A stretch of 64,000 bases of DNA. It comes from Candidatus Saccharimonadales bacterium. Lineage in GTDB: Bacteria; Chloroflexota; Dormibacteria; Aeolococcales; Aeolococcaceae. Under the pieces are notes generated by a model. It saw only the letters and a list, made by a program, of their open reading frames with translations, was not told the origin of the DNA and ran no database searches. The position numbers and the translations under genes were made by a program. The stretch covers positions 35,961 through 99,960 of the forward strand of contig DATLRB010000073.1 of NCBI GenBank assembly GCA_035534875.1, in the 5' to 3' direction. Shown here in pieces: positions 1-60,794 of the stretch. Numbering within the stretch: the first letter of the stretch is position 1; every line of letters begins with the position of its first letter.

Positions 1-115
1 CGCAACCGGCAGGAAGACCCAACCCGTCGCCTGGGTCTGAGGGGCCCCGTCCCGGGGGGCGGGGCGGAGGCACTGGTATCATCGACCGCGCTGACGCTTG
101 CCGATGGCGAGCCAG

Positions 116-192
116 GGGCGCATAGCTCAGTTGGTACGAGCGCTGCGTTGACATCGCAGAGGTCATAGGTTCGATCCCTATTGCGCCCACCA
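116..192 (+). tRNA. tRNA-Val (anticodon GAC), 77 nt with encoded CCA
   Basis: Hand-folded cloverleaf: acceptor GGGCGCA/TGCGCCC, D-arm GCTC-AGTTGGTA-GAGC, anticodon stem CTGCG/CGCAG with loop TTGACAT (anticodon GAC), variable loop AGGTC, T-arm ATAGG-TTCGATC-CCTAT, discriminator A, CCA. Confidence 0.85.
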
Positions 193-380
193 TATCGTCA
201 CGTCTCGGGAGATTGGGCCACCTGTCTCACGTCGTTGTGGCAGGGTGGAGGCGGGCGCAGGGCGTTCCCAGGGCTGGCCGCTGTCCTCGAAGTCATGGCG
301 CTGCTGAGTGGATTCCCGCCCGGACACGACCCGGCGCCGCGCGGCGAAGGTTATTGTCGGAAATGTCGCTAACCTTCCCG

Positions 381-394
381 GGACAATATTGTCC
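381..394. promoter_or_regulatory. Perfect 14-bp palindrome GGACAATATTGTCC upstream of the HNH gene (candidate operator near the -35 position)
   Basis: Seen directly in the sequence; the two halves are exact reverse complements. It lies about 24 nt upstream of a TACAAT hexamer. Confidence 0.3.
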
Positions 395-401
395 GTGCTG
401 T

Positions 402-423
402 TCGAACAGGTGTTTGGTACAAT
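402..423 (+). promoter_or_regulatory. SOS-box-like TCGAAC-AGGT-GTTTGG followed by a TACAAT -10-like hexamer immediately 5' of the HNH gene start
   Basis: Matches the mycobacterial LexA consensus TCGAAC-N4-GTTCGA at 10 of 12 defined positions. The TACAAT at 418-423 abuts the GTG at 424, so the real start may be the leaderless GTG at 430. Confidence 0.3.
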
Positions 424-1560
424 GTGTCAGTGGAAGCGTTCGCGATATCTGATGCGCGAGACCGTGTGAATGAGGCTGTCGATGCACTCGTGGACGAGTC
501 CATCGACGATTTCTCGACACACGCCCTGGCCGCGGACCTGATCGACATCCGGCGGGCGATCGATCGGCTCGAAGCAGAGTTCGTCAGCCGCTTGCACCGC
601 TTTCACAGCGATGGCGGGGCGCTGGCCGATGGCGGGGTGAGCACGGTTTCCTGGCTGCGATCTCACTGCGGCATGACGGTGAAGGAGGCCGCCTACCGCG
701 TGCACCTGGCGCGGACGCTTGGCGAGTTGCCGGCAACGCTCGACAGCGCCCGTGCCGGTCGGGCCTCGTTCACCAACGTGACCATGATCGCCCACCTCGC
801 CGAGGACGTCGGCGTGGAGCAGGTGGCGCCGCTCGAGAGCATCCTGGTGGGAGCGGCGGAGACGCTCGAGCCTGGTGCCATGCGTACCCTTACCCAAGCC
901 GTCCGGCTGCGGCTCGACCCCGACGGCGTGCTCGCCGATGACAACCACGCCCATGAGCGCCGCTGGTTCGAGTGCGAGCAGACGTATGGTGGCGTGTTCG
1001 TTTTGCGTGGTGAGCTCGATGCCGAAGGCGGCGCCCTGGTCAAGACCGCGATCGATGCGCTCAGTCACGGCATGAGTCGTGGAGAAACGCGGTCGGGCTC
1101 GCAGCGCCGTGCCGACGCGCTGGTCGATCTTGCCGCCACGCAGCTGCGCTGCGGTGTCCACCGCGATGTGCACGGGCAGCGGCCGCATCTCACGGTCACG
1201 GTGAGCGCGGACACGCTGCGCTCTGGCGCCGGTGCACAGCCAGCCGAGTTGAGCGGCGCGGGTCGGATCCATCCGGAAACCGCGCGCCGCATCGCCTGCG
1301 ACGCGGTGCGGACGGTGGTCACGGTCGCGTCGCCAGCTGATGGTTCGGCTTGGACGGCCATGAGCACGCGTGCGCTGCCTCTCTCAGTCGGACGGGCCAC
1401 GCGCATTGTCCCCGCACATATCCGCAGCGCGCTGCGCCTCCGCGACCATGGCTGCCGCTTCCCGGGGTGCGATCGCCCGCCCGCGTGGACCGATGGCCAC
1501 CACATCATCCACTGGTCGGACGGCGGCCCAACCGAACTCGACAACCTCGTCCATGGTTAA
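424..1560 (+). pseudogene. DUF222 / HNH endonuclease (actinobacterial 13E12-repeat-family type), 5' fragment (378 codons) truncated inside the HNH motif by the insertion
   Basis: The C-terminal ...RFPGCDRPPAWTDGHHIIHWSDGGPTELDNLV is the first half of an HNH motif (HH...N), and the ORF stops 3 codons later (HG*). The missing final-His segment (LCRPHHRAVHEQGW) is found in-frame at 5985-6107. The N-terminal 300 aa are DUF222-like. Confidence 0.8.
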
Positions 1561-1571
1561 TACAACCCCTT
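1542..1571 (+). repeat. Direct repeat copy A (CAACCTCGTCCAT-GGTTAATACAACCCCTT), the left junction of the cassette array
   Basis: A 13-nt core CAACCTCGTCCAT is identical in copies A, B and C, followed by GTTA-N-TACAACCCCTT-like sequence. Similarity extends about 20 nt upstream and 15 nt downstream. Confidence 0.75.
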
Positions 1572-1728
1572 ACGTAGTGGCCAGCTCAGATCGTCCTTGG
1601 TGTCCGACGATGGGTGCTCCTCCCCCCCGGTGCCCGGAGGTCGGCCCGCAGGCAGACACGCTGGTTGCGTCCATCGATGAGCCGCCTGCGACACTGGTCT
1701 ACTGTCACGAGCGCGGGAGGAAACGGCG

Positions 1729-2622
1729 ATGACAGTGTCCGCTTCTCCGGTTGAGCCGAAGGTGCTCTTGGACGGGCTCGCCATGGTCGAGTCACCTCGC
1801 TGGCACGACGGCCGGCTGTGGTTCGCCCACTGGGGTGCGGGCGAGATCCGGGCGGTGGATCTCGACGGCAACAGCGAGGTCATGGGCCATGGCCCGGAGG
1901 GCCTCGGTTGGACGATCGACTGGCTCCCTGACGGACGCCTGTTGGTTACTGGCGCGGAGCTCCTGTGTGTTGGACCCGACGGCTCGTCGGCCCCGTACGC
2001 AGATCTCACCGACATCAGTGAACGCGGTTGGAACGACATCGTTGTCGATGGCCGTGGCAACGTGTACGTCACTAGCATCGCCTTCGACTACCTTGCCGGC
2101 AAGCCTCCTAACGCGGGGATCATCGTCTTGGTGACCCCGGACGGCAGCTCGCGCCAGGTGGCTGCGGGTCTCAAGTTTCCCAACGGCATGGTCGTCACAC
2201 CCGACAACTCGACGCTGATCATCGGCGAGTCCTTCGCCGGTCGACTCACGGCCTTCGACATCGACGCTGCCGGGAGCCTGTCCAACCGCCGCGTGTGGGC
2301 CGAAGGCTTGGGCCCGGATGCCATTTGCATGGACACAGAGGGGGCGATCTGGACCGGGACGGGGGACACCCGGCTCTCTACTGGCCGCGACGATTCGCCC
2401 GGTGGGGCCGTCGCCCGCGTCCGGGAAGGGGGTGAGGAGCTGAACCGGGTTGAACACGACCGCTCGATATTGGGCTGCGCGCTTGGCGGCCCCGACCGTC
2501 GGACGCTGTTCCTCGTCGCGACGGAATGGCGCGGCACCGATCAACTGGACAACGTCCTTGCGGCACGCACCGGACAGGTGCTCATCGCCCCGGCACCGGC
2601 GTCAGGAGTCGGGTGGCCATGA
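1729..2622 (+). CDS. SMP-30/gluconolactonase/LRE-family (SGL) protein, cassette 1 gene 1
   Basis: 297-aa ORF preceded by the RBS GGGAGGAAACGGCG. Beta-propeller-like repeats with a WHDGRLWFAHWGAGEI motif typical of SGL lactonases. Tandem paralog of the next gene. Confidence 0.7.
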   Translation: MTVSASPVEPKVLLDGLAMVESPRWHDGRLWFAHWGAGEIRAVDLDGNSEVMGHGPEGLGWTIDWLPDGRLLVTGAELLCVGPDGSSAPYADLTDISERGWNDIVVDGRGNVYVTSIAFDYLAGKPPNAGIIVLVTPDGSSRQVAAGLKFPNGMVVTPDNSTLIIGESFAGRLTAFDIDAAGSLSNRRVWAEGLGPDAICMDTEGAIWTGTGDTRLSTGRDDSPGGAVARVREGGEELNRVEHDRSILGCALGGPDRRTLFLVATEWRGTDQLDNVLAARTGQVLIAPAPASGVGWP

Positions 2623-3476
2623 GCGGGTGCTCAGTGAGCGACGATGACGGAATGAACGAGACACGCGTCGTGGTTGACGGCTTGGGCTTTCCGGAGTCGA
2701 CGCGGTGGCGCGACGGACGTATCTGGCTGTGCAACTGGGGTGCCGGCGAGGTACTGGCTCTGAGCATCGAGGGCGAGCGCGAAGTGATGGCTCGTCTCGC
2801 ACCGCATACCATTCCGCTGAGCATTGACTGGCTTCCCGACGGGCGAATGCTCGTCGTCGACGGGCCAGGAGGTAGGCTGCTGCGTCAGGAGCCGGACGGA
2901 ACGCTGGACATCGTGGCGGATCTCACCGCCTTCGGCAGCCCGCCGTTCAATGAGATCGTGATCGACGCAACCGGGAACGCGTATGTGAACGGTGGACCGG
3001 GAGTTATCCGTGTGCAGCCGGACGGGGGCATGCGCAAAGTCGCCGACGGCCTGCCCTGGCCCAACGGTATGGCGCTGGTCGACGATGGCCGCACGCTCGT
3101 CGTCGCTGATTCGCGCGCCGAGCAGCTCGTCGCGTTCGAGGTGGCGGACGACGGGACCCTCTCAGACCGCCGCGTCTGGGCCGACCTCGAGCACGCGCCC
3201 GACGGCATCTGCGCGGACGCAGACGGAGCTGTGTGGGTTGCGAGCGTTCCCGGTCAGCGCTGTGTGCGGGTGCGGGAGGGCGGCGACGTGCTCAACACGG
3301 TCGCCGTTGATCGAGGGTGCTTTGCCTGCATGCTCGGAGGCGAGGACGGTACGACGCTATTCATCGCGGCCGCCGAATGGCACGGGATGGAGGCGGCGAT
3401 GAGCGACGGGCCCGATTGGACCGGGCAGTTGCTCGCGGCGCCCAACCAGCCTGCACCGCACGCAGGCCACCCTTAG
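2619..3476 (+). CDS. SMP-30/gluconolactonase/LRE-family (SGL) protein, cassette 1 gene 2
   Basis: ATGA overlap with the upstream gene. The protein MSGCSVSDDDGMNETRVVVDGLGFPESTRWRDGRIWLCNWGAGEV... is collinear and about 40% identical by eye to the upstream paralog. Confidence 0.7.
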   Translation: MSGCSVSDDDGMNETRVVVDGLGFPESTRWRDGRIWLCNWGAGEVLALSIEGEREVMARLAPHTIPLSIDWLPDGRMLVVDGPGGRLLRQEPDGTLDIVADLTAFGSPPFNEIVIDATGNAYVNGGPGVIRVQPDGGMRKVADGLPWPNGMALVDDGRTLVVADSRAEQLVAFEVADDGTLSDRRVWADLEHAPDGICADADGAVWVASVPGQRCVRVREGGDVLNTVAVDRGCFACMLGGEDGTTLFIAAAEWHGMEAAMSDGPDWTGQLLAAPNQPAPHAGHP

Positions 3477-3532
3477 GCGCCCCGCCCAGCTCCACCTACT
3501 CCGCTGGGGCGTCGCGGGACGACGGCCCCTGG

Positions 3533-3562
3533 CAACCTCGTCCATCGTTAAAGCATCCCCTT
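3533..3562 (+). repeat. Direct repeat copy B (CAACCTCGTCCAT-CGTTAAAGCATCCCCTT)
   Basis: Same 13-nt core. In the HNH frame it reads G-N-L-V-H-R-stop. Confidence 0.75.
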
Positions 3563-3670
3563 TCCAAGCCCGCCGAGTGGGATCTGCTTCGGCCAGATCG
3601 CGACCGAGGTCGCCGGCGCTGCCCCGGTTCGGTAAGTACCATTGGACGCGTGGCTGACGGTTTCGTGCGG

Positions 3671-4165
3671 ATGCCTGGGGAGGGCGATCGGATCTCCCCT
3701 GCCATGAAGCTCAAAGTGGGCGACAGGCAGTCCGAGTGCTTCTCCGTGTTCGAAGTGGTCGACATCGGGCCAGGTTTCGACGTCGGGGCGCACCTGCATC
3801 ACAACGCCGAGGAGATGTTTTACGTCCTGGAGGGCGAGCTCGACTTGCTCGCTTTCGAGCCGCGGGTTCGGACGCCCACCGACTGGCAGCACTGGGAGTC
3901 TCACAGCGGGGCCAAGGTGGCTCGGGGCCGCCCGGGCAGTTTCATGTTCGTCCCGCACGGCTGCCCGCACGCTTTCGCCAACCCGGGCCCTGGCCTGGCT
4001 CGGATGATCTTCCTCGTTGCGCCGCCCGGTCACGAGCATTACCAAAAGGAGCTTGCGGAACTGGTGGTCAGAGCTACCGGCCCCTTGGACGAGGCGATCG
4101 GGCAGCTGCGGGCCCGTTACGACATCGAGCAACTCACCCCCCAGGTGGTGCCCAGGCCGCGCTAG
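3671..4165 (+). CDS. Cupin-domain protein, cassette 2
   Basis: Cupin motifs G(x)5HxH(x)3,4E ... GxxxxxPxGxxHxxxN are present as GAHLHHNAEEMFYVLEGE ... FMFVPHGCPHAFAN. The start could also be the ATG at 3704. Confidence 0.6.
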   Translation: MPGEGDRISPAMKLKVGDRQSECFSVFEVVDIGPGFDVGAHLHHNAEEMFYVLEGELDLLAFEPRVRTPTDWQHWESHSGAKVARGRPGSFMFVPHGCPHAFANPGPGLARMIFLVAPPGHEHYQKELAELVVRATGPLDEAIGQLRARYDIEQLTPQVVPRPR

Positions 4166-4486
4166 TTGGTCGCCGAGGAGAGCCCGCTGGGAGCTGTTGC
4201 CGGGCTGATCCGCGACCCCCTATGGCAGCGCCAAGCGCGCCGAGTAGACGCAGGTAAGACGCTTCTCGGTGCACCCGGAGCTCAGGACAAGCTGCTAGAC
4301 GCCCTCGTCGAGAGACCACTGGCAGACAGCACGATGAACGTGCGTCGACTAGGCTCGTCTGGCCCGGTGGCCACTTGCGCCTTACATCGACTCCGGGGGG
4401 TCCCTCCAGGATCGCCCACCAACAACCAACACGACAGAGGTAGGGCGCGTAGACCAACGGAGGGCGTGGTTTCCAACAGTTACGGC

Positions 4487-4516
4487 CAACCTCGTCCATT
4501 GTTAGTACAACCCCTT
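4487..4516 (+). repeat. Direct repeat copy C (CAACCTCGTCCAT-TGTTAGTACAACCCCTT)
   Basis: Same 13-nt core. In the HNH frame it reads A-N-L-V-H-C-stop. The element-side 17 nt match copy A at 15 of 17 positions. Confidence 0.75.
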
Positions 4517-4732
4517 CCCAGGGGCCACATGAGATCAGCGACGGCTCGCTAGTTTTGGTGGATGACGCTTGAGCAGGTAGCCGTTGCTCAAGACGGTCAG
4601 AGGCCGGGCACAGCCGGGAGCCGCAGCCACGACCTGCCGCCGAGATAGCTCCTTCGTTTGCGAGCTTCGAAGGGGCCAAATCACGGACGAGCTCGGCGCT
4701 CGCTTTTACGAATGCGTGCCTCGCAAGATATC

Positions 4733-5101
4733 ATGTCAGACATGACCGAGGACCGCGACCTGACCGAGTTGCGCCGTGGGGTGCTCGGTCCGTGCGTCCT
4801 CGCTCTCCTGGAGGAGCGCACCCGGTTCGGACTGGAGCTGGTGCGTGACCTGGCGTCCGCAGACAGCCTGCTGACGAGCGATGGGACCGTCTACCCCCTA
4901 CTCAACCGGATGCGCGACGCGGGGTTGGTGACCAGCGAATGGCGGGACGAGTTGAGAGAGCGGCCTCGCCGCTACTACGCGATCACCGCGGCGGGTCGGA
5001 GGCACCTCGCCGCGTTCCGGGCGGAGTGGCCCCGGTTCTCAGCGACCGTTTCCGAGGTATTGCGCAGCCCGGCTTTCGCCGTCGTGAGTGACGACAGATG
5101 A
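4733..5101 (+). CDS. PadR-family transcriptional regulator, cassette 3 gene 1
   Basis: 122-aa winged-helix protein with the PadR signature ...GYEL..L....GTLYPLL.RLE..G... (here GLELVRDLASADSLLTSDGTVYPLLNRMRDAGLV). A 13-bp palindrome CATGTCAGACATG overlaps its start codon. Confidence 0.7.
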   Translation: MSDMTEDRDLTELRRGVLGPCVLALLEERTRFGLELVRDLASADSLLTSDGTVYPLLNRMRDAGLVTSEWRDELRERPRRYYAITAAGRRHLAAFRAEWPRFSATVSEVLRSPAFAVVSDDR

Positions 5102-5976
5102 GCAGCGTCATGGAAAGAGACGACCGCGTACGAGCCTACCTCAGTGAGCTCGAGAGAGAGCTGCGAGTCTTGCCGGCACCGCAGGCTACCGAGCTGATGG
5201 AGCAAATCAGCGCCCACCTCGACGAGGCCCTGCCCCGGGGCAGCGCAGAGGAGACGGTGGCGGCGGTGCTGCGCCGGCTCGGCTCCCCCGCGAAACTGGC
5301 CGCTGAAGCGAAAACCACTGAGAGGCTCGACGAAGAGGCGCCCGAGATCGCCCGTTCGAGGTCGCCCCTTCGGCACCGGTACGGCTGGCGGGGCTGGGGC
5401 GCGATCGCGGCTGGCCTGGCCCTAGGGTGCGTCCTGACGACGTTGCTCGGGCTGTACATCGCAACGCCGAGCCTCTCTATCGGCGGTTCCTCAGCGTGGT
5501 GGTACCCGCAGGACCAGGCTCGGGCGGTCTATTCGTCGACGCTCGGCGCAGCCGCAACGACGGTTCCTGCTCGCCGCGCGCAGTGGCAGGGGTTCGTGGT
5601 CGAGGTGGAGAACCCAAGCAGCTCGGCTCAGACCGTCCTGGGCATGGCCTCTTCCACGGACAGCCCCACCGGCTTGGTCGGCATGGCCAACGTCACCGAC
5701 GTCAAGGTCGGCGTGTCCACGTACTCCAACTACACCGGCGCGGCGCCCAACTTTCAGAGCATGCACTTCACTACCGGGCAGACCATCCAGCCAGGCCAGT
5801 ACCGCTTCATCAGGGTGATCTGGATGACGGACCCGTGCAGCCTGGCCAATGGTTCCGGCTTAACCGGAACTGCCCAGGTGAACCTGGAGGTGCAGGTGGG
5901 CTGGTTCTCGCGCGAGGAGAACCTGACCCTCGATCCCGGCTGGCAGCTCTCGCTTGGGCTCGACTGTTCCGGCTGA
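5098..5976 (+). CDS. Membrane protein with an N-terminal DUF1700-type (HAAS-like) helical domain, the usual PadR-associated partner; cassette 3 gene 2
   Basis: ATGA overlap with padR. The N-terminus YLSELERELRVLPAPQATELMEQISAHLDEAL resembles DUF1700. A predicted TM helix (WGAIAAGLALGCVLTTLLGLYIA) is followed by a Ser/Thr-rich extracytoplasmic domain. Confidence 0.55.
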   Translation: MSSVMERDDRVRAYLSELERELRVLPAPQATELMEQISAHLDEALPRGSAEETVAAVLRRLGSPAKLAAEAKTTERLDEEAPEIARSRSPLRHRYGWRGWGAIAAGLALGCVLTTLLGLYIATPSLSIGGSSAWWYPQDQARAVYSSTLGAAATTVPARRAQWQGFVVEVENPSSSAQTVLGMASSTDSPTGLVGMANVTDVKVGVSTYSNYTGAAPNFQSMHFTTGQTIQPGQYRFIRVIWMTDPCSLANGSGLTGTAQVNLEVQVGWFSREENLTLDPGWQLSLGLDCSG

Positions 5977-5984
5977 TCCTCCCC

Positions 5985-6107
5985 TGCGGGAGCACGACCC
6001 TCGCGAACCTGGTCTCCCTGTGCCGGCCGCACCACCGCGCGGTGCATGAGCAGGGTTGGCGCCTCCATGTCGCTGACGGAGTTGCCGTCGTGGAGCCGCC
6101 GCCCTGA
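5985..6107 (+). pseudogene. DUF222/HNH endonuclease 3' fragment (final HNH histidine segment), separated from its 5' part by about 4.4 kb
   Basis: Encodes CGSTTLANLVSLCRPHHRAVHEQGWRLHVADGVAVVEPPP-stop. STTLANLV is a diverged duplicate of PTELDNLV at the end of the 5' fragment, and LCRPHHRAVHEQGW completes the HNH motif. Confidence 0.7.
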
Positions 6108-6166
6108 CGATCGTGCGACGCGGCAGGCAGCGTTTCCGGCGAGCGATCCTTGACCAGTACCGGCTC

Positions 6167-6739
6167 TCACCCGTCTGGTGTTGACCCCTTATCCGGCACG
6201 TTTCGGGATTCTGCGCGCTCGCGCCAACCGGTGGGGAAGCCAGGGTCCCACGCCGGGGTCTGTTTGCCGTCGAACAGGAACTGCTCGAGGTGGGTCACGA
6301 CGAAGCGGTGATCCTCAACCTGTGGCAGTCCGGACACCGCGACGGTGCCGACGCAGCCGCTCGACTCGACGAGGATCGGGAATGCTCCGCCGTGGGCGGC
6401 GAACTTCGCAACATCGAGGCGGGAGTCCCTGTCGAAGTCAAGTCCGTCGGCGCGAAATTTGCAGCCCACGAAATATGAGGAGTGCCCGTAGCGTTCAACC
6501 ACGGCTGCCTTGCGGAGCAGCCACGCATCGTTGTCAGCCGATGAGCCCGGCAGCGCGGCGTGGAACAGGCACTGACCGTTGCGCCGGATGGAGATCGCCA
6601 CCGGCAGGCGCAGCTCCAGCGCGGCGGCGCGCAGGTGCGACCCGAGCTCCCACGCGGTGTCGTGGTCGAAGTGGGAGAACACCAGACGCTCCTCTTCCGC
6701 AAGCAGCGTCGCAAGCAGCTCGGCCGGGGCTTCGCTCAT
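6167..6739 (-). CDS. DUF336 (GlcG/HbpS-like, heme-binding-type) protein
   Basis: GGAFPI motif (AAHGGAFPILV) and GxxGxVAVSG motif. ATGA overlap with the upstream oxidoreductase gene. Confidence 0.6.
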   Translation of the reverse strand: MSEAPAELLATLLAEEERLVFSHFDHDTAWELGSHLRAAALELRLPVAISIRRNGQCLFHAALPGSSADNDAWLLRKAAVVERYGHSSYFVGCKFRADGLDFDRDSRLDVAKFAAHGGAFPILVESSGCVGTVAVSGLPQVEDHRFVVTHLEQFLFDGKQTPAWDPGFPTGWRERAESRNVPDKGSTPDG

Positions 6740-7767
6740 GACCCGGCCACCGCAACCACCACGCCGTTCAGGGCGCTCGATCTGGCTGCCTCCAGCACCG
6801 TCGCGGTCGCGACGGCGTCATGAGGATCGACGGGCGGTGCATTGTCACCGCGCACGGCCCCGGCGAACGTCGAATAGAACAGATCCCAGCGCCCGCGCTC
6901 GGTGGCGTACGGCGTGGACGCGGTCCCGGTGTGCAGCGTGCCGTAGCTGTCCGGGGACTCGACGCCCCAGTGATCCGCTAGCGACGCCGGCGTTTCGCCG
7001 GCAAGCAGCGCGTTCTCCTGCGTGTCCGCGGGACCGAGCACGTAGGTCGCTTCGGCACCGGTGACCCGGTATCGGGGGCCCGGCGCCGACTGGCTCCAGC
7101 TTCCCCACAGGTGGGACCGGGCGCCGCCCACGTGCGTCAGCGCGATAAACACATCATCGTCGAGACCCGACTCGCGGATGCGCAGTTCCGCGTAGACGCT
7201 CACGGCCGGTCCGAGCAGGACCAGAGCCTGGTCGACGAGATGGCTCCCGAAGTCGAGCAGGGTGCCGCCACCGGACTTCCCGGGCCCCCGTTGGGGCGCG
7301 AAGCGCTCGAACCGCGACTCGAAGCGGGTCATGGTCCCGAGCGTCCCGTCGGCGGCCAGTTTTCGGACGGTGCGGAAATCCGAATCCCAGCGCCGGTTCT
7401 GGTACGGGCTCAGTATCGAACCACGTGCATCGGCCAGGGCGACCGTCTGCCGGGCGGCTTCGGGATCGAGCGCGAACGGCTTGTCGCAGACGACCGCCAG
7501 TCCCAAGGCAATGGCCTGTTCGGTCAGGCTGGAATGCGTGTCGGCGGGGGTGGAGATGGCCACCGCCTCGACCCCCGCGTCGACGAGAGCGCTCAACGAG
7601 GCGAAGGTCGGCGTGCCCGGGATCTCGCGAGCAACCAGCGCCTGACGCTCCGGCGACGACGTCATCACCCCGATCAGGTCGCACTCAGGAGCTGACGTGA
7701 TCAGTGGTGCGTGGAAATACCGGCCGCCAAAACCGTAGCCGACGAGGCCAAACCGTACTGGTGTCAT
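6736..7767 (-). CDS. Gfo/Idh/MocA-family NAD(P)-dependent oxidoreductase
   Basis: N-terminal Rossmann motif RFGLVGYGFGGRYFHAPLI. 343 aa. Confidence 0.75.
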   Translation of the reverse strand: MTPVRFGLVGYGFGGRYFHAPLITSAPECDLIGVMTSSPERQALVAREIPGTPTFASLSALVDAGVEAVAISTPADTHSSLTEQAIALGLAVVCDKPFALDPEAARQTVALADARGSILSPYQNRRWDSDFRTVRKLAADGTLGTMTRFESRFERFAPQRGPGKSGGGTLLDFGSHLVDQALVLLGPAVSVYAELRIRESGLDDDVFIALTHVGGARSHLWGSWSQSAPGPRYRVTGAEATYVLGPADTQENALLAGETPASLADHWGVESPDSYGTLHTGTASTPYATERGRWDLFYSTFAGAVRGDNAPPVDPHDAVATATVLEAARSSALNGVVVAVAGS

Positions 7768-8838: not shown

Positions 8839-10554
8839 TTAGTGGGATTCGCGGGAGACGGTGCTGCCGGTCGATCCCAGCAGGAAGTCGAGATCCGCTC
8901 CGGTGTTGGCCTGCTGGACGGTCTGCACGTAGAGCCGCTCCCAGCCGCGGAGCGGGTTCGCGTAGGCGCTGACGGTTGCGCTGTCGGCGGCGCGTGCCGC
9001 CAGTTCCTCTGCGGAGATGTCGATATCGAGACGCCGGGCATCGACGTCGAGGATCACCATGTCGCCGGTTCGCACCAGCCCGAGCGGACCCCCGGCGGCC
9101 GACTCCGGACAGACGTGGAGCACCACCGTGCCGTACGCGGTCCCGCTCATCCTGCCGTCACAGATGCGAACCATATCGCGCACGCCTTGCTGCAGGAGTC
9201 TGGCCGGCAGCGGCATGTTCGCCACCTCGGGCATCCCCGGATACCCCTTCGGGCCGCAGCCGCGCATGATCAGGACTGAGTCCGCGTCGACGTCCAGGTC
9301 CGCGTCGTCGATGCGCGCATGCATGTCCTCGATCGAGTCGAACACCAGCGCGCGTCCGCGATGTTGCAGCAGGTGTGCGGATGCCGCAGCCGGCTTGATC
9401 ACGGCGCCCCCTGGAGCCAGATTGCCGTACAGGATCGCGATGCCGGCGTGCGGTTGAATCGGCTGGGCTCGCGGGTGGATGACCTCGGTGTCCCAGATCC
9501 GCACCTCGCCCAGGTGATCGACGAGCGGTCTGCCCGTGACCGTGCGAGCGGTCGGGTCGAGGAGGTCCTGGACTTCGCGCAACACGGCCTGGAGCCCGCC
9601 GGCGCGGAAGAAGTCCTCCATCAGGAAGCGACCGGCGGGCTGCAGGTCGACAAGCAGCGGAACCTGTGAACCGGTGACGTCGAAGTCGTCCTGTGTGAGT
9701 TCGACACCGAGCCGGCCGGCGATGGCGAGCAGATGGACGACCGCATTGGTCGAGCCGCCGATCGCCGCCAGGGTGACGATGGCATTGAGGAACGAACCGC
9801 GTGTGAGAAGGCTCGACGGCGTTCTCTGCGCCGCGACCATCTCCACGGCAAGACGGCCGGTATCGTGCGCGCCCTCGAGGAGACGGCTGTCGGCGGCCGG
9901 GGTCCCCGCCAGGCCGGGCAGGACCATCCCGAGCGACTCCGCGAGCAATCCCATGGTCGACGCGGTGCCCATGGTGTTGCAGTGGCCGCGGCTCCGGATC
10001 ATCGACGACTCCGACCTGATGAACTGGGCTTGGGAGAGGGTCCCCGCCCGAACCTCCTCCGACAGGCGCCAGACGTCGGTGCCGCAGCCGAGCGCCTGGC
10101 CGCGGAACGTGCCGGTGAGCATCGGCCCCCCGGGAACCACGACGGCGGGAAGGTCGACGGACGCCGAGGCCATGAGCAGCGCCGGGATGGTCTTGTCGCA
10201 CCCACCGAGGAGGACCACCCCGTCGATCGGGTTGGCACGCAGCATCTCCTCGGTGGCCATGGCGGCCATGTTTCGCCAGAGCATCGCCGTGGGCCGGACC
10301 AGCGTCTCACCGAGCGAGACCACCGGCAAGTTCAGCGGGATGCCGCCCGCCTCGAAGACGCCCTGTTTGACGCTCTCGGCGACCTCATTCAGGTGCGCGT
10401 TGCAGGGGGTGAGGTCCGAGGCGGTGTTGGCGATGGCGATGTGAGGGCGGCCGTCGAACGCGTGCGCGGGCAGGCCACGCCGCATCCACGCCCGATGGAT
10501 GTAGGCGTTGCGATCGGTGCCCGCGTACCACTGCCCGCTGCGCTGCTCCGCCAC
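8839..10554 (-). CDS. IlvD/EDD-family sugar-acid dehydratase (arabinonate/xylonate dehydratase-like)
   Basis: The N-terminal RSGQWYAGTDRNAYIHRAWMRRGLPAHAFDGRPHIAIANTASDLTPCNAHL matches the pentonate dehydratase signature. CxxC and Ser motifs of the IlvD/EDD family lie downstream. Start uncertain: the GTG at 10554 was chosen, but it could extend to the ATG at 10734. Confidence 0.75.
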   Translation of the reverse strand: MAEQRSGQWYAGTDRNAYIHRAWMRRGLPAHAFDGRPHIAIANTASDLTPCNAHLNEVAESVKQGVFEAGGIPLNLPVVSLGETLVRPTAMLWRNMAAMATEEMLRANPIDGVVLLGGCDKTIPALLMASASVDLPAVVVPGGPMLTGTFRGQALGCGTDVWRLSEEVRAGTLSQAQFIRSESSMIRSRGHCNTMGTASTMGLLAESLGMVLPGLAGTPAADSRLLEGAHDTGRLAVEMVAAQRTPSSLLTRGSFLNAIVTLAAIGGSTNAVVHLLAIAGRLGVELTQDDFDVTGSQVPLLVDLQPAGRFLMEDFFRAGGLQAVLREVQDLLDPTARTVTGRPLVDHLGEVRIWDTEVIHPRAQPIQPHAGIAILYGNLAPGGAVIKPAAASAHLLQHRGRALVFDSIEDMHARIDDADLDVDADSVLIMRGCGPKGYPGMPEVANMPLPARLLQQGVRDMVRICDGRMSGTAYGTVVLHVCPESAAGGPLGLVRTGDMVILDVDARRLDIDISAEELAARAADSATVSAYANPLRGWERLYVQTVQQANTGADLDFLLGSTGSTVSRESH

Positions 10555-27264: not shown

Positions 27265-27615
27265 CGATAAATGCACCGTTTCTTGGACGGCAGCCCGGTA
27301 GAAATTCCCGGGCTCTTGGTGGCACCGCTACCGGTGCCGGGTCTGAGAAACGCCCGGCACGAACTCCCGCCCGCACAACGCGCACTTGCCTCTGTTTCAG
27401 GCCATCCCGGGGGACGCCGATTGCCCAGCGACCTCGACGGTGGCGCAATGGATGTGCGGTCCAGGGGCCCGTCAGCCGGGCCTCAACCCTCCGCTCGGCC
27501 GTGCCGGAAACGCTGCCAGACGGTTCGCAACATCGGGGTGGCTACCTCCGTCTGATTACCAATGCTCCCTCCAACGATAGACCTGTTCCCCGCCGACCAC
27601 AAGGAGCGCGAGGCC

Positions 27616-27643
27616 TAGACTGGGTTCAGGGCTGCGCTAGAAT
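27616..27643 (+). promoter_or_regulatory. Candidate sigma-A-type promoter (TAGACT-N16-TAGAAT) about 28 nt upstream of yebC
   Basis: Hexamers seen in the sequence. The -10 context CTGCGCTAGAATCGG is nearly identical to CTGCGTAGAATCGG upstream of thrS. Confidence 0.3.
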
Positions 27644-27671
27644 CGGAACGCCTGTTCGTCTCGGAGGATCC

Positions 27672-28430
27672 ATGTCCGGTCACAGCAAGTGGGCTGGAAT
27701 CAAGCACAAGAAGGCAATCGTCGACGCTCGCCGCGGCCAGGTCTTCACCAAGGTCACGCGTGAGCTGACCGTTGCCGCACGCGAGGGCGGCCCTGATGTC
27801 GAAGGCAACTTCCGGCTGCGACTGGCCATGCAGAAGGCTCGCGAGGTGAATATGCCCGCGGACAACATCGAGCGTGCGATCCAGCGCGGTGCGGGCGGCA
27901 AGGACGGCGTGCAGCTCGAGGAGGTTCGCTACGAAGGATATGGGCCGCACGGTGTCGCCGTCATGGTCGACACGCTGACGGACAACCGCAACCGAACGGT
28001 TGCGGGGATTCGCAATGCGTTCACGCGCTCGGGGGGCACGCTCGGCGAGGCGAACAGCGTCGCCTGGATGTTCAACCAGCAGGGTGTCATCAGCATCGAG
28101 GCGGGGAAGCGCGACCCCGAGGACCTCGCCCTCGAGTTGCTCGACGCGGTCGACGTCGGCGAGGACGGCGACGTCAGCGTCGACGGGGACGACGTGGTGG
28201 TGACCGTCGCTCCCTCACGTTTCGAAGCGGTCCGGCGCACGCTCGAGGAACGCAACTATCCGGTCGACTCCGCGGAGGTGACCATGAACCCGACCACCTC
28301 GGTGGTGCTCGACGCGTCGCAGGCACGCCAGGTCCTCCGTCTGCTCGACGGGCTCGAGGAGCACGATGACGTGCAGCAGGTCTACGCCAACGCCGAGATA
28401 CCGGACGACGTCCTTGACGCTGCCGGCTGA
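27672..28430 (+). CDS. yebC: YebC/PmpR-family transcriptional regulator
   Basis: MSGHSKWAGIKHKKA... is the invariant family N-terminus. The RBS GGAGGA lies 4-9 nt upstream. Confidence 0.9.
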   Translation: MSGHSKWAGIKHKKAIVDARRGQVFTKVTRELTVAAREGGPDVEGNFRLRLAMQKAREVNMPADNIERAIQRGAGGKDGVQLEEVRYEGYGPHGVAVMVDTLTDNRNRTVAGIRNAFTRSGGTLGEANSVAWMFNQQGVISIEAGKRDPEDLALELLDAVDVGEDGDVSVDGDDVVVTVAPSRFEAVRRTLEERNYPVDSAEVTMNPTTSVVLDASQARQVLRLLDGLEEHDDVQQVYANAEIPDDVLDAAG

Positions 28431-53048: not shown

Positions 53049-53122
53049 GGCCCCGTGATCCCACCGCCCGCATGCGGATCGCGGCGCCCCAACTTCGGGC
53101 TTGTCACGTCCTCGCGAAGGTT

Positions 53123-53140
53123 GTACAGTACAAATGTTCG
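53123..53140. promoter_or_regulatory. Candidate LexA-type operator about 200 nt upstream of recA: palindrome TGTACAGTACA overlapping GTACAAATGTTCG (one mismatch to the GAAC-N4-GTTC Cheo-box core)
   Basis: Seen in the sequence. A TCGAAC half-site also occurs at about 53309-53314. Confidence 0.25.
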
Positions 53141-53339
53141 CCCCACCCGGTGAGCCCGGACGCGTCGCCCGTCGCGACCCCCCTACGGCATCCCCGCCGC
53201 ATCTCCGACCAATTCCACCACCCCTTGGAGTACAGCTTTGACGAACACACTGGCAAGTCGTACCATCGATACTGTCGAGCCTGTCGTAGAGGTAAACGGG
53301 CGGCGTGCTCGAACGCCCCGTGACGAGAGGAGTGAGCCG

Positions 53340-54395
53340 GTGACGACTGAGCGGGATCGAGCCCTGCAGACAGCGCTCGGACAGATCGAACGAGCCCACG
53401 GAAAGGGAGCGATCATGCGTCTCGGCGACGTACATGCTCAGCACATCGACATCATCCCGACCGGTGCCTTGACCCTCGACATCGCGCTCGGAGTCGGCGG
53501 CATCCCGCGCGGCCGGATCATCGAGGTGTACGGCCCGGAATCCTCGGGCAAGACGACCCTCACCCTGCACATCATCGCCGAGGCGCAGCGTCGCGGTGGC
53601 GTCGCCGCCTTCATCGACGCCGAGCACGCGCTCGATCCACAGTACGCGTTGCGCATCGGTGTCAACACCGAGGAGTTGCTGATCTCGCAACCGGACACCG
53701 GCGAGCAGGCTCTCGAGATCGTCGAGGTGTTGGTGCGCAGCGGTGCTGTCGATGTCGTCGTGATCGACTCGGTGGCCGCCCTCGTTCCGAAAGCTGAGAT
53801 CGACGGTGAGATGGGGGACAGCCACGTCGGCCTGCAGGCACGGCTGATGTCCCAGGCAATGCGCAAGTTGACGGGCGCGATCAGCCGATCCAACACGTCG
53901 GTCGTCTTCATCAACCAGCTCCGCGAGAAGATCGGCGTGATGTTCGGCAACCCCGAGGTCACCTCAGGAGGCCGCGCTCTAAAGTTCTATGCCTCGGTGC
54001 GCATGGACATTCGCAAGATCGACTCCATCAAGCAGGGCCTCGACGTGGTCGGCAGCCGCGTCAAGGTCAAGGTTGTCAAGAACAAGGTCGCGCCGCCGTT
54101 CCGTTCGGCCGAGTTCGACATCCTTTACAACGAGGGCATCTCGTACGCCGGGAGCGTGCTCGACATGGGTATCGACGCGCACATCATCGACAAGAGCGGC
54201 GCCTGGTTCTCCTACGGGGACATGCGCCTCGGACAGGGTCGCGAGAACGTGCGCGACTTCCTGCGCCAGAACCCCGACCTGATGGAGGAGGTGGCCGCGA
54301 AGGTGCGCATCGCCGCGCTGCCGGAACCGGTTCTCCACGACGCCGTCGTCGAGTTGAACGGCGAAGTGCCGCCCCTGCCCGCGCCGATCGCCTGA
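53340..54395 (+). CDS. recA: Recombinase RecA
   Basis: [24 protein letters not shown]..., Walker [10 protein letters not shown] and Walker [14 protein letters not shown] start 7 nt after the RBS GAGAGGAG. The upstream 34 codons of the track ORF are discarded. Confidence 0.95.
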
Positions 54396-54414
54396 CACGC
54401 GCAGATCGGCGATC

Positions 54415-54897
54415 GTGAGGCAACTCACTCCGCCCGCAGTGCCTGAAAGTGCGGACGCCGCGGAGGATGCCGCCCTGCGCATCCTTCGTGGCGCCGGCCA
54501 GTCAGCCGCTTCCCTCGGGCGCAAGCTCGAGCGGCGCGGCTATACGGCGGAGGCGGCGGGCGAGGCCGTTCGGCGCTGCGCCGACTCCGGGTACGTCAAT
54601 GACGCGGCCATGGCGGCATCGGTGGCGGCACGCCATCGGCGCGCGGGACACGGGCGGGCACGTGTGGCCGCTGACCTCAAGGCGAAGGGTGTCGCCGCCG
54701 AGCTCATCACCGAGGCGCTCGACGGTCAGAACGACACCGAGGAAGCCGCCGCGATCGCGGTTGCCCGGCAACTCTGGGAGCGTATCGCGACGTCTGGAAC
54801 GCGGGACCAGCGGGCGCGGATGCGTGTCGCCGGCGCACTCCAGCGTCGGGGTTTTTCGGCATCGCTCGTCGCCCGGGTGATGCGCGCGCTGACCTGA
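54415..54897 (+). CDS. recX: Recombination regulator RecX
   Basis: 160 aa immediately downstream of recA. Three helical repeats (AL..LARR..S..EL..KL..KG). Confidence 0.8.
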   Translation: MRQLTPPAVPESADAAEDAALRILRGAGQSAASLGRKLERRGYTAEAAGEAVRRCADSGYVNDAAMAASVAARHRRAGHGRARVAADLKAKGVAAELITEALDGQNDTEEAAAIAVARQLWERIATSGTRDQRARMRVAGALQRRGFSASLVARVMRALT

Positions 54898-54914
54898 ATG
54901 TCAGACTCACTCCC

Positions 54915-55886: not shown

Positions 55887-55896
55887 CCTCCTGGCC

Positions 55897-57183: not shown

Positions 57184-57432
57184 GCTCCCTAGGGTAGTCC
57201 GCCACGCCGCTTTGATCGAAACATGCGAGTAACCCCTCTGGCTCGTACAATGACGGTGTCTCCCGTCGCGAACGACCGGCCAGAAGCTGGCCGGCCCCGA
57301 CCGGATCGTCGAGACGCTGTGGGTCTCGCCCCGGTCCCCTTCCCGTCGTGAGGCGTTCCAAGCAGGGCGCATCGCGCCCCACCTCCGAGGTTCCATCCCA
57401 TCGGCATCGAGATCCTCGCCCTGGTAGGGCTG

Positions 57433-58941: not shown

Positions 58942-59053
58942 CGATTGCATCGCGCTCGCCCGTGCTCCGCGATACGGGGGGCGACAATCGCGGCCGATAA
59001 TGTCGACGTCCTACTCACCGCCCTCACCTGACGCCCCCGGGGTGACCTCCCCT

Positions 59054-59314
59054 TTGGAAATTCTCAAAGTCTCAGCAACGAGCAAACCGGTCGCCGTCGC
59101 CGGCGCGATCGCCGGTGTGGTGCGCACCCAGAAGAAGGTCGAGGTCCAGGCGATCGGCGCCGGGGCGATCAATCAGGCGATCAAGGCAATCGCCATCTCA
59201 CGCGGCTATGTCGCTCCGGGCGGGCTTGACCTGGTCTGCATCCCCTCGTTCATCGACATTTCCATCGACGGCGAGGAGCGCACCGGAATCCGACTGGTCG
59301 TCGAAGTCCGCTAG
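59054..59314 (+). CDS. SpoVS-family protein (stage V sporulation protein S homolog)
   Basis: LEILKVSATSKPVAVAGAIAGVVR...AIGAGAINQAIKAIAISRGYVAPGGLDLVCIPSFIDISIDGEERTGIRLVVE is collinear with SpoVS. A TTG start is proposed; an in-frame ATG at 59000 would add 18 aa. Conserved rny-spoVS neighbourhood. Confidence 0.75.
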   Translation: MEILKVSATSKPVAVAGAIAGVVRTQKKVEVQAIGAGAINQAIKAIAISRGYVAPGGLDLVCIPSFIDISIDGEERTGIRLVVEVR

Positions 59315-60753: not shown

Positions 60754-60794
60754 GAACGAGCTCGAAGGCTCGGGCTCCGCATCTCATCGCGGCG

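What the first reader, a model, noticed from the sequence alone, without database searches (positions are those of the whole stretch)
375..430. SOS-box-like operator, a 14-bp palindrome and a TACAAT hexamer directly upstream of the HNH gene, with the whole cassette array co-oriented downstream (possible damage-inducible read-through)
Directly 5' of the HNH start there is GGACAATATTGTCC (381-394, perfect palindrome), TCGAACAGGTGTTTGG (402-417, 10 of 12 matches to the actinobacterial LexA box TCGAAC-N4-GTTCGA), and TACAAT (418-423) abutting the GTG. This suggests a leaderless transcript, possibly starting at the GTG at 430.

Several 13E12-family genes in M. tuberculosis are reported members of the LexA regulon. 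All seven cassette genes have the same orientation and most lack obvious promoters of their own. Transcription from this promoter would therefore express the array. This is conceptually parallel to SOS-controlled integron cassette expression, and is inference only.
Basis: partly seen in the sequence, partly recalled or inferred. Interest (0 to 1): 0.55.

Follow-up and report, generated by a model that had tools for sequence, protein, structure and literature searches.

The report
SOS-repressed leaderless promoter of HNH element
The short stretch in front of this HNH-nuclease gene is very probably a DNA-damage (LexA/SOS) controlled promoter, in an uncultured soil phylum (Dormibacterota) rather than an actinobacterium. 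Relatives of the gene in other phyla carry the LexA site typical of their own host, so SOS control looks like a trait of the whole gene family.

Summary
All three motifs are at the stated coordinates. None is beyond chance within the window alone.

Comparison with 66 related loci shows which parts are real:
- 60 of 62 alignable promoters carry CGAAC-N4-GTTTG at a fixed position (window 403-416).
- The box overlaps an extended -10 (TGn-TAnnnT, 415-423).
- The start codon lies 6-7 nt further on. In the window it is GTG 430, not GTG 424, so the mRNA is leaderless.

The organism is Candidatus Dormibacterota, not an actinobacterium. The same Cheo-type box lies in the promoters of recA and yebC-ruvCAB in this window. 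It also lies upstream of recA and uvrA in related genomes. A matrix built only from those SOS-gene sites ranks site 403 second in the window.

Gammaproteobacterial DUF222-HNH homologues carry E. coli-type boxes (CTGT-N8-ACAG) instead. M. tuberculosis 13E12 genes are LexA targets by ChIP-seq.

Only the right half of the palindrome (TTGTCCGTG) is conserved, and its ligand is unknown.

Read-through into the co-oriented cassette array is plausible but untested. The PadR cassette has its own promoter.

Verdict: a real LexA-type operator, and a new member of a known kind.

The parts
116..192 (+). tRNA-Val(GAC), about 230 nt upstream of the HNH start. This is context: the HNH unit sits just downstream of a tRNA gene.
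   Evidence: ARAGORN; Rfam tRNA 68.7 bits
350..373 (+). Imperfect 24-bp inverted repeat GTTATTGTC-GGAAAT-GTCGCTAAC. The family consensus is GTTAYTGCC-N6-GGCnATAAC. It marks the left edge of homology among the HNH units. Function unknown, probably a protein-binding site.
   Evidence: Upstream comparison. The full block is present in 47 of 67 loci.
381..397 (+). The 14-bp palindrome GGACAATATTGTCC plus GTG. The conserved element is the right arm, TTGTCCGTG (389-397). It is a second candidate operator with an unknown ligand.
   Evidence: TTGTC[CA]GTG in 45 of 67 loci; full palindrome in 12 of 67. The C-variant is nearly confined to HNH promoters in 1.44 Mb.
403..416 (+). LexA (SOS) box CGAAC-AGGT-GTTTG, at -27 to -14 relative to the inferred transcription start.
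   Evidence: Exact in 60 of 62 homologous promoters, with a variable RNRY spacer. It ranks 2nd of about 64,000 window positions with a matrix built only from recA, ruv and uvrA sites.
415..423 (+). Extended -10 promoter element TG-G-TACAAT. Its TG is the last two bases of the LexA box.
   Evidence: TG in 60 of 62 loci; the -10 is always TAnnnT. It is one of only two TGnTAnnnT sites on the + strand in 1-6300.
430..1560 (+). DUF222-HNH (13E12-family) gene. Its true start is GTG 430, which is also the inferred transcription start (leaderless). The 3' end is cut after ...DNLV by cassette insertion.
   Evidence: Pfam. The start aligns with ATG in 55 homologues, 6-7 nt after the -10. Most homologues have an intact 3' end.
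1542..1571 (+). Junction 1, between the HNH gene and cassette 1: CAACCTCGTC|CATGGTTAATACAACCCCTT.
   Evidence: Direct-repeat family D1; pattern search gave 3 hits against 0.08 expected.
1729..3476 (+). Cassette 1: two SMP-30/gluconolactonase-like genes (1729-2622 and about 2652-3476).
   Evidence: Pfam SGL, E 3e-33 and 4e-31
3533..3562 (+). Junction 2, between cassettes 1 and 2.
3680..4165 (+). Cassette 2: cupin gene (start approximate).
   Evidence: Pfam Cupin_2/Cupin_1
4487..4516 (+). Junction 3, between cassettes 2 and 3.
4705..4744 (+). The PadR cassette's own promoter: TTTACG-18-TATCAT, then ATG at 4742 seven nt later (again leaderless).
   Evidence: Promoter scan; sequence
4742..5976 (+). 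Cassette 3: PadR regulator and HAAS-domain protein.
   Evidence: Pfam PadR E 9e-20; HAAS E 1e-11
6006..6107 (+). Displaced 3' end of the HNH gene (NLVSLCRPHHRAVHEQGWRLHVADGVAVVEPPP*). This is the right end of the array.
   Evidence: tblastn, 94% identity to the intact C-terminus; sequence
27638..27658 (+). Reference SOS promoter in the same genome: TAGAAT followed by GGAACGCCTGTTCG, in front of yebC-ruvC-ruvA-ruvB.
   Evidence: The only exact GAAC-N4-GTTC in the window; operon
53100..53140 (+). Reference SOS promoter: recA P1 (TTGTCA-N17-TACAGT) overlapping the box AGTACAAATGTTCG (53127-53140).
   Evidence: The box is kept at the same place in 5 other Dormibacterota recA loci.

Best explanation
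Positions 403-432 form a LexA-repressed, extended -10, leaderless promoter of a multi-copy DUF222-HNH (13E12-family) gene in a Candidatus Dormibacterota genome.

Proposed mechanism:
1. In undamaged cells a LexA dimer sits on CGAAC-AGGT-GTTTG (-27 to -14).
2. The box's last two bases are the TG of the extended -10 (TGgTACAAT), so bound LexA blocks RNA polymerase.
3. After DNA damage, activated RecA triggers LexA self-cleavage.
4. Transcription then starts at the G of GTG 430, which is also the start codon.

The single departure from the ideal box (GTTCG to GTTTG) is exactly the base that creates the extended -10. I infer one sequence serving two functions.

Transcripts probably run on into at least the first cassette(s) inserted in the 3' end of the gene. 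That step is inferred only.

Shown here: motif positions, conservation, the same motif at SOS genes, and host-matched operators in other phyla. Inferred: LexA binding, damage induction, the transcription start, and read-through.
For: 1. Footprint. 60 of 62 promoters from paralogues and orthologues (62-88% protein identity, about 25 genomes) keep both half-sites exactly. The N4 spacer varies (AGAT 24, AGGT 23, GGAT 5, ATAT 3...) and always fits RNRY. Flanking upstream columns carry almost no information.

2. Position. CGAAC lies at -27 to -23, in the promoter spacer where RNA polymerase needs no specific bases.

3. Same genome. The only GAAC-N4-GTTC, GAAC-N4-GTTT and GTAC-N4-GTTC sites in 64 kb are at the HNH, yebC-ruvCAB and recA promoters.

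4. Same phylum. The recA box is conserved in place in 6 of 6 genomes: AGTACAWATGTTCG, CAAACATCTGTTCG, CGAACAACCGTTCG. uvrA has CGAACATACGTTTG-C-TATGCT in one genome and CGAACAGATGTACG in another.

5. Independent matrix. A matrix built from those non-HNH sites scores site 403 at 16.8 bits, second in the window and above the ruv site.

6. Operator switching. DUF222-HNH homologues (about 40% identity) have E. coli-type boxes such as TACTGTATTTATATACAGTA upstream instead. The hosts are Halioglobus, Wenzhouxiangella, and Xanthomonadales and Pseudomonadales MAGs.

7. Literature.
- Six of 25 M. tuberculosis LexA ChIP-seq peaks are at 13E12 genes.
- Rv2100 transcription starts inside its SOS box, with translation probably starting there too (PMC3381160).
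- The Gram-positive consensus is CGAACRNRYGTTYC (PMC2248561).

8. Leaderless start. The -10 to start-codon gap is 6-7 nt in 58 of 61 loci, leaving no room for a ribosome-binding site.
Against: - No lexA gene was found in the 64-kb window or in 1.4 Mb of related loci. The presence and specificity of LexA in this organism are therefore inferred, not shown.
- There are no expression or binding data.
- The right half-site is confounded with the extended -10, so only the left half-site (CGAAC) is unambiguous evidence for an operator.
- Paralogues could homogenise by gene conversion. However, spacer and flanks do vary.
- For read-through: cassette 3 has its own promoter. Terminators without U-tracts cannot be excluded in this G+C-rich genome.
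Confidence: 0.8

Rival explanations
1. The promoter and operator are real but drive only the (truncated) HNH gene. The cassettes are expressed from their own promoters or not at all, so there is no damage-inducible cassette expression.
For: - The PadR/HAAS cassette has a good -35/-10 promoter with a leaderless ATG.
- There are 130-230 nt of untranslated sequence between junctions and cassette genes.
- Stable hairpins (-24 kcal/mol) exist at 1595-1654 and 3477-3536.
Against: - All 5 window cassette genes are co-oriented with the HNH gene, as are all Pfam-supported cassette genes in L064, L071, L047 and L021.
- There is no hairpin followed by a U-tract.
- No other extended -10 lies on the + strand between 424 and 6300.
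- The SGL and cupin genes show Shine-Dalgarno sequences but no recognisable promoter.
Confidence: 0.4
2. The conserved CGAAC-N4-GTTTG is bound by some other repressor, specific to the element or encoded by it, and not by LexA.
For: - No lexA gene was seen.
- 64 of 68 CGAAC-N4-GTTYG sites in 1.44 Mb are at HNH promoters, so the motif is numerically dominated by this element.
Against: - The same motif sits in the recA (6 genomes), uvrA (2 genomes) and yebC-ruvCAB promoters.
- Homologues in Gammaproteobacteria carry a quite different sequence that is the LexA box of those hosts.
- M. tuberculosis homologues are bound by LexA in vivo.
Confidence: 0.07
3. The conservation reflects constitutive promoter architecture only (extended -10 plus a favoured spacer), with no regulatory protein.
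For: The right half-site overlaps the TG of the extended -10. No -35 is evident.
Against: - The invariant CGAAC at -27 to -23 has no known role in sigma-70-type recognition.
- The spacer between the half-sites is free to vary while both half-sites are fixed.
- The palindromic symmetry and the match to SOS-gene sites would be unexplained.
Confidence: 0.06
4. The 14-bp palindrome (381-394) is the main operator, bound by a dimeric regulator. One candidate is a WYL/PafBC-like damage-response activator, given the resemblance of TTGTCCGTG to the mycobacterial RecA-NDp/PafBC element.
For: - TTGTC[CA]GTG is present in 45 of 67 loci.
- Some clades have 8-nt arms, CACGGACA-N5-TGTCCGTG.
- M. tuberculosis 13E12 genes that lack SOS boxes carry RecA-NDp.
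- In the longer promoter variants a TACGGT lies 9-10 nt downstream.
Against: - The PafBC motif is tGTCgg-N10-tAnnnT (PMC8635444). In the window the distance to the -10 is 22 nt, and in the long variants it is 11-12 nt.
- The core is TGTCCG, not TGTCGG.
- The full palindrome is present in only 12 of 67 loci.
- 14-bp palindromes are not rarer than chance in the window.
- The motif is not found at other damage genes.
Confidence: 0.25

Closest known systems
LexA-regulated 13E12 (REP13E12 / DUF222) genes of Mycobacterium tuberculosis (Rv0336, Rv0515, Rv1702c, Rv2100, Rv1588c, Rv0095c)
   Same: - Same protein family (DUF222 plus HNH).
- Multi-copy in the genome.
- An SOS box in the promoter.
- At least one member (Rv2100) starts transcription, and probably translation, at the box (leaderless).
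- The copies are targets for insertion of other elements (PMC3381160).
   Different: - Different phylum (Dormibacterota).
- The box is the 14-mer Cheo type with GTTTG, and it lies upstream of and fused to an extended -10 rather than over the transcription start.
- What is inserted here is a string of small promoter-poor gene cassettes at a fixed point in the HNH motif, not a prophage-like element.
- There is no experimental evidence here.
Gram-positive LexA (DinR) operator, the Cheo box CGAACRNRYGTTYC
   Same: - Core GAAC-N4-GTTY with an RNRY spacer.
- Placed over promoter elements.
- Found at recA, uvrA and ruv genes in the same lineage.
   Different: - The Dormibacterota sites also tolerate GTAC half-sites (recA: AGTAC-N4-GTTCG), as in the cyanobacterial consensus RGTACnnnDGTWCB.
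- The cognate LexA was not identified.
SOS control of integron integrase (LexA box in PintI), with cassette arrays read from a common promoter
   Same: - A LexA-controlled gene sits at the head of an array of co-oriented, mostly promoter-less cassettes.
- The cassettes are separated by a repeated junction sequence.
- The cargo is small accessory enzymes.
   Different: - No tyrosine recombinase lies next to the array.
- The attachment point is inside the coding sequence of the HNH gene, and insertion truncates it.
- The junction is a 30-bp direct repeat, not an attC hairpin site.
- In integrons LexA controls recombination, not cassette transcription (own knowledge).
- It works somewhat like an integron but is not a member.
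PafBC / RecA-NDp promoters of mycobacteria (tGTCgg-N10-tAnnnT)
   Same: - A TGTC(C/G)G-containing element lies upstream of a TAnnnT -10.
- It occurs in promoters of the same gene family, which responds to DNA damage in M. tuberculosis.
   Different: - The spacing does not fit: 22 nt in the window, 11-12 nt in the long variants.
- One core base differs.
- The element is often palindromic.
- No PafBC was identified in this phylum.

Membership tests
LexA (SOS) operator, Gram-positive Cheo type | Palindromic core GAAC-N4-GTTC (degenerate consensus CGAACRNRYGTTYC) | tested here: met
   CGAAC-AGGT-GTTTG at 403-416 matches 13 of 14 positions of the degenerate consensus. It has one mismatch to the ideal palindrome.
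LexA (SOS) operator, Gram-positive Cheo type | Site overlaps the core promoter of the regulated gene | tested here: met
   The box spans -27 to -14 and shares TG with the extended -10. The register is the same in 60 of 62 homologues.
LexA (SOS) operator, Gram-positive Cheo type | Same motif upstream of canonical SOS genes of the same organism or lineage | tested here: met
   recA and yebC-ruvCAB in the window. recA in 5 further genomes. uvrA in 2 genomes. Matrix rank 2 in the window.
LexA (SOS) operator, Gram-positive Cheo type | Genome encodes LexA, and the lexA promoter carries the box (autoregulation) | not testable with these tools
   No lexA in the window or in 1.4 Mb of related loci.
LexA (SOS) operator, Gram-positive Cheo type | LexA binding and RecA-dependent induction by DNA damage | not testable with these tools
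   Needs EMSA, ChIP or RNA data. It is shown only for the M. tuberculosis homologues.
13E12 / DUF222-HNH family | DUF222 domain followed by an HNH nuclease motif | tested here: met
   Pfam DUF222 E 1.3e-32; HNH E 6e-5. The HNH motif is cut after the N residue here. The rest lies at 6006-6107.
13E12 / DUF222-HNH family | Several dispersed copies per genome | tested here: met
   Up to 6 loci from one MAG, for example CAWBSL01. Three loci come from the complete chromosome OY970307.1.
Leaderless mRNA | -10 hexamer ends 6-7 nt before the start codon, with no Shine-Dalgarno sequence | tested here: met
   TACAAT 418-423 and GTG 430. The gap is 6 nt in 32 homologues and 7 nt in 26.
Leaderless mRNA | Mapped 5' end at the start codon | not testable with these tools
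   No transcript data.
Integron | IntI tyrosine recombinase next to attI | tested here: not met
   There is no recombinase among the array genes or in the 3 kb upstream in L001.
Integron | attC recombination sites (imperfect inverted repeats) at cassette ends | tested here: not met
   The junctions are a 30-bp direct repeat, CAACCTCGTCCATNGTTAnnnCAnCCCCTT. No attC-like inverted repeats were reported.
PafBC / RecA-NDp promoter | tGTCgg-N10-tAnnnT with fixed spacing | tested here: not met
   TGTCCG at 390-395 is 22 nt from TACAAT. In the long variants it is 11-12 nt from TACGGT.

The most novel reading that the evidence does not exclude
The LexA-controlled DUF222-HNH gene may be the core of an SOS-triggered, integron-like cassette platform that uses no tyrosine integrase. 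Its own 3' end (AACCTSGTC, inside the HNH motif) would be the attachment site. Its promoter would transcribe the captured, co-oriented cassettes. The HNH/DUF222 protein, supplied in trans by intact paralogues, would take part in capture or excision. Host-matched LexA boxes in three phyla would then mean that DNA damage is the general trigger for this element family.
Probability: 0.2. Interest if true: 0.85.

Novelty: new member of a known kind. Interest (0 to 1): 0.6.

Why it matters
1. It gives a first, testable definition of the LexA box (G[A/T]AC-N4-GT[T/A]C, ideal CGAAC-N4-GTTCG) for Dormibacterota, a phylum without cultured model organisms. It also names first regulon members: recA, uvrA, yebC-ruvCAB and all DUF222-HNH copies.

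2. SOS control of the enigmatic 13E12/DUF222-HNH genes is not a mycobacterial oddity. The family carries the LexA box of whichever host it lives in (Cheo type, mycobacterial type, E. coli type). That argues for strong selection to fire on DNA damage, as for prophages, ICEs and integron integrases. It points to a mobile or genome-rearranging function.

3. The promoter heads an array of inserted accessory-gene cassettes. Stress-coupled expression or shuffling of those genes becomes a concrete experiment.

Tried and rejected
It returned only 62-72% identical recA loci from other phyla, which were useless for the Dormibacterota motif. I replaced it with a homologue search plus five contig look-ups.
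- A search for lexA by tblastn with E. coli and B. subtilis LexA found nothing. Two weak hits turned out to be a 5'-3' exonuclease and GlmU.
- A viral-contig scan with a DUF222-HNH alignment gave no relatives.
- Rfam found nothing but the tRNA in 1-7000. It found nothing in the tRNA-like region of L024; ARAGORN also found nothing there.
- An exact look-up of the first cassette protein was not on record.
- GTG 424 was rejected as the start. It is not conserved and abuts the -10.
- TTGTCC as a -35 was rejected because it lies 23-24 nt from the -10.
- An ECF-sigma promoter (GGAAC-N17-GTT) was rejected because the spacing is only 4 nt.
- PafBC-type promoter membership was rejected on spacing.
- Integron membership was rejected because there is no IntI and no attC.
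- The left block as an RNA hairpin or terminator was rejected. There is no U-tract and the arms do not covary.
- Literature searches found no description of Dormibacterota LexA. They also found no HNH-based cassette arrays.
Full report
**Observation**

The sequence is as described:
- GGACAATATTGTCC at 381-394.
- TCGAACAGGTGTTTGG at 402-417.
- TACAAT at 418-423.
- GTG at 424 and, in frame, at 430.
- The ORF 424..1560 is a DUF222 plus HNH protein (Pfam).
- A tRNA-Val gene lies at 116-192.

None of the motifs is remarkable within the window alone:
- Sites with at most 2 mismatches to TCGAAC-N4-GTTCGA occur 11 times, against 4.3 expected.
- Perfect 14-bp palindromes occur 12 times, against 8.6 in shuffles.

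**Source organism**

A genome scan with the HNH protein returned 79 loci.
- Nearly all come from Candidatus Dormibacterota MAGs from peat and soil.
- There are several copies per genome.
- They are 62-88% identical to the window protein.

RecA is encoded in the window at 53340-54395. It is 99% identical to a protein named Candidatus Dormibacteria RecA.

**Footprint**

I aligned the upstream regions of 67 non-identical copies. They show four conserved blocks in otherwise unconserved DNA.

1. GTTAYTGCC-N6-GGCnATAAC (window 350-373). This is the left edge of homology.

2. TTGTCCGTG (window 389-397).
- It is present in 45 of 67 loci.
- An inverted left arm is present in only 12 of 67.
- Some clades show CACGGACA-N5-TGTCCGTG.

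3. GCGAAC-N4-GTTTG(G/C).
- It is exact in 60 of 62 alignable promoters, always one base before the -10.
- The four spacer bases vary (AGAT 24, AGGT 23, GGAT 5, ATAT 3, and others).
- The spacer always fits RNRY.

4. A TAnnnT hexamer (TAGAAT 20, TACAAT 15, TATACT 12, TATAAT 10).
- The start codon follows after 6 nt in 32 loci and after 7 nt in 26 loci.
- It is ATG in 55 loci.

That start codon aligns with window GTG 430. GTG 424 is not conserved.

TG is present at -15/-14 in 60 of 62 loci, which makes this an extended -10 promoter. It is one of only two TGnTAnnnT sites on the + strand in 1-6300. The other precedes the tRNA.

The TG is the end of the box. The one deviation from the ideal palindrome (GTTCG to GTTTG) is exactly what creates the extended -10.

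**Is it a LexA site?**

The literature consensus for Gram-positive LexA is CGAACRNRYGTTYC (PMC2248561). The family box fits it in 13 of 14 positions.

Within this window, three patterns were searched: GAAC-N4-GTTC, GAAC-N4-GTTT and GTAC-N4-GTTC. Each occurs exactly once, and each time in a promoter:
- The HNH gene (403).
- Position 27645, between a TAGAAT -10 and the yebC-ruvC-ruvA-ruvB operon.
- Position 53127, overlapping the TACAGT -10 of recA.

The recA box is kept at the same place in five other Dormibacterota genomes, with informative variation:
- AGTACATATGTTCG.
- CAAACATCTGTTCG.
- CGAACAACCGTTCG.

uvrA carries a box in two genomes:
- CGAACATACGTTTG-C-TATGCT in one. This is the same box-plus-extended -10 layout as the HNH promoter.
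- CGAACAGATGTACG in another.

A symmetrised matrix built only from these nine non-HNH sites scores window site 403 at 16.8 bits. That is second among about 64,000 positions, behind recA's own site and above the ruv site.

In 1.44 Mb of Dormibacterota sequence, 64 of 68 CGAAC-N4-GTTYG sites are at HNH promoters. As in M. tuberculosis, this family dominates the predicted regulon numerically.

**Host-matched operators in other phyla**

This is the strongest independent argument. The locus scan had picked up distant homologues (34% identity) in a Myxococcales MAG. Their starts are preceded by CTGAACTAATAAACAG followed by TATACA.

A protein search with one of them found a large gammaproteobacterial branch of DUF222-HNH proteins. 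Upstream sequences from four hosts all carry E. coli-type SOS boxes (CTGT-N8-ACAG) 30-40 nt before the start:

| Host | Box |
|---|---|
| Halioglobus japonicus | TACTGTATTTATATACAGTA |
| Pseudomonadales MAG | TACTGTACATTTATACAGC |
| Wenzhouxiangella | TACTGTATACTTGTATAGTA |
| Xanthomonadales MAG | AGTGTATATTTATACAGTA |

In M. tuberculosis, six of 25 LexA ChIP-seq peaks lie at 13E12 genes. Rv2100 starts transcription, and probably translation, within its SOS box (PMC3381160).

The three operator sequences share nothing except being the LexA site of their host. This makes an element-specific repressor, or a purely architectural explanation, unlikely.

**What is not shown**

- No lexA gene is present in the sequence I could reach.
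- LexA binding, damage induction and the transcription start are inferred.
- The right half-site is confounded with the extended -10.

**The palindrome**

Only its right arm is a family feature. The C-variant TTGTCCGTG is nearly confined to HNH promoters.

It resembles the mycobacterial PafBC/RecA-NDp element, which some M. tuberculosis 13E12 genes carry. However, the defining spacing tGTCgg-N10-tAnnnT (PMC8635444) is not met. The distance is 22 nt in the window. In the longer promoter variants a TACGGT lies 11-12 nt away.

I treat it as a second, element-specific protein-binding site with an unknown ligand.

**The array**

Most homologues have an intact 3' end (...DNLVSLCRPHHRAVHEQGWRIHIADGVAVVEPPP*). 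The window copy is interrupted right after NLV by CATNGTTAnTACAACCCC, and so are the copies in L008, L021 and L064. L047 and L069 carry the same junction motif at the end of their HNH match.

In the window the junction CAACCTCGTCCATNGTTA occurs three times (1542, 3533, 4487), against 0.08 expected. The displaced HNH 3' end lies at 6006-6107.

This delimits three cassettes:
- Two SMP-30/gluconolactonase-like genes.
- A cupin gene.
- PadR plus a HAAS-domain protein.

Every Pfam-supported cassette gene is co-oriented with the HNH gene, both here and in other arrays. The other arrays carry DUF5808 and GNAT in L064, glyoxalase in L071, an alpha/beta hydrolase in L047, and DUF6176 in L021.

All four occupied copies whose 5' region could be read (L008, L021, L047, L069), besides the window, keep the LexA box.

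There is no hairpin-plus-U terminator and no other extended -10 within 424-6300. Read-through into cassettes 1 and 2 is therefore plausible.

The PadR cassette has its own promoter, TTTACG-18-TATCAT, with ATG seven nt later. No recombinase lies next to the array. The system resembles an integron in layout but fails the integron membership tests.

**Comparison and novelty**

LexA control of 13E12/DUF222 genes is known for M. tuberculosis, so the finding itself is a new member of a known kind.

New here:
- The phylum.
- The composite LexA box and extended -10 leaderless design.
- The host-matched operators in distant phyla.
- The fact that the promoter heads an array of inserted cassettes.

I found no paper describing Dormibacterota LexA or HNH-based cassette arrays. 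Absence from the searchable library is not proof of novelty.

**Verdict**

- The LexA-operator and leaderless-promoter reading is well supported (confidence 0.8).
- Read-through expression of the array is open.
- The palindrome is partly real, with unknown function.

Noticed in passing
window 1542-6107; L008 11127 and 12509; L021 11163-13394; L064 10641-11917; L071 3603-4412; L047 10972; L053 16521; L069 10912: Small gene cassettes are inserted at one fixed point of the HNH motif (after NLV; core AACCTSGTC). Each begins CATNGTTAnTACAACCCC and ends ..CAACCTCGTC. Most paralogues are empty sites. The cargo is small accessory enzymes. No recombinase lies nearby.
   Followed up: partly
L165-L169 (about 30-40 nt upstream of position 601); L075 about 9935-9965; L076: Gammaproteobacterial DUF222-HNH homologues, and copies in a 'Myxococcales' MAG, carry E. 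coli-type SOS boxes (CTGT-N8-ACAG) upstream. The operator type follows the host.
   Followed up: partly
window 53100-53300: recA appears to have two promoters. One is TTGTCA-N17-TACAGT, overlapped by the box AGTACAAATGTTCG. The other is a near-consensus TTGACG-N17-TACCAT about 120 nt further down, without a box. The recA box also fits the cyanobacterial LexA consensus RGTACnnnDGTWCB.
   Followed up: partly
window 27608-27675: The yebC-ruvC-ruvA-ruvB(-queA) operon has TAGAAT followed by GGAACGCCTGTTCG just before its ribosome-binding site. This is the only exact GAAC-N4-GTTC in 64 kb.
   Followed up: yes
window 350-373 and the same place in 47 of 67 loci: A conserved 24-bp imperfect inverted repeat, GTTAYTGCC-N6-GGCnATAAC, marks the left boundary of the repeated HNH unit. 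The right boundary is the stop codon. It starts with GTTA, like the cassette left ends. Function unknown.
   Followed up: partly
L018, L019, L031, L038, L044, L046, L052, L058 and others, about 40-20 nt upstream of the LexA box: A 'long' promoter variant has TTGTCCGTG-N9/10-TACGGT directly upstream of the LexA box. This may be a second, tandem promoter reminiscent of the mycobacterial RecA-NDp layout.
   Followed up: no
L024 9370-9383 and 9690-9770; L023 and L026 about 90-110 nt upstream of the HNH start: A perfect CGAACGTATGTTCG followed by CAGAAT lies about 630 nt upstream of an HNH gene. It precedes a region that ends in a tRNA-like 3' end (GGTTCGAATCCTGGCCCGCCCA). Neither ARAGORN nor Rfam recognises that region. 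Several HNH units abut such tRNA-like ends, as the window copy abuts tRNA-Val.
   Followed up: partly
window 4705-4744: The PadR cassette has its own -35/-10 promoter and a leaderless ATG. Leaderless starts seem common in this genome.
   Followed up: partly
L001 (DATKQX010000163.1): This contig is 100% identical to the window over the HNH gene and junction, but is deposited as Candidatus Saccharimonadales. L030 is deposited as Acidiferrales. Both are probably mis-binned Dormibacterota contigs.
   Followed up: no
window 53340-63400: The gene order recA-recX-...-rny-spoVS-miaB-mutS resembles Firmicutes. cinA-recA-recX is conserved across Dormibacterota loci L160-L164.
   Followed up: no
L024 8076-8813 (-); L073 1045-2094 (+): An ImmA/IrrE-like metallopeptidase (HEXXH) lies near the L024 box. 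A tyrosine recombinase with an adjacent small HTH gene lies about 8 kb upstream of the HNH gene in L073. Possible mobile-element context; not examined.
   Followed up: no
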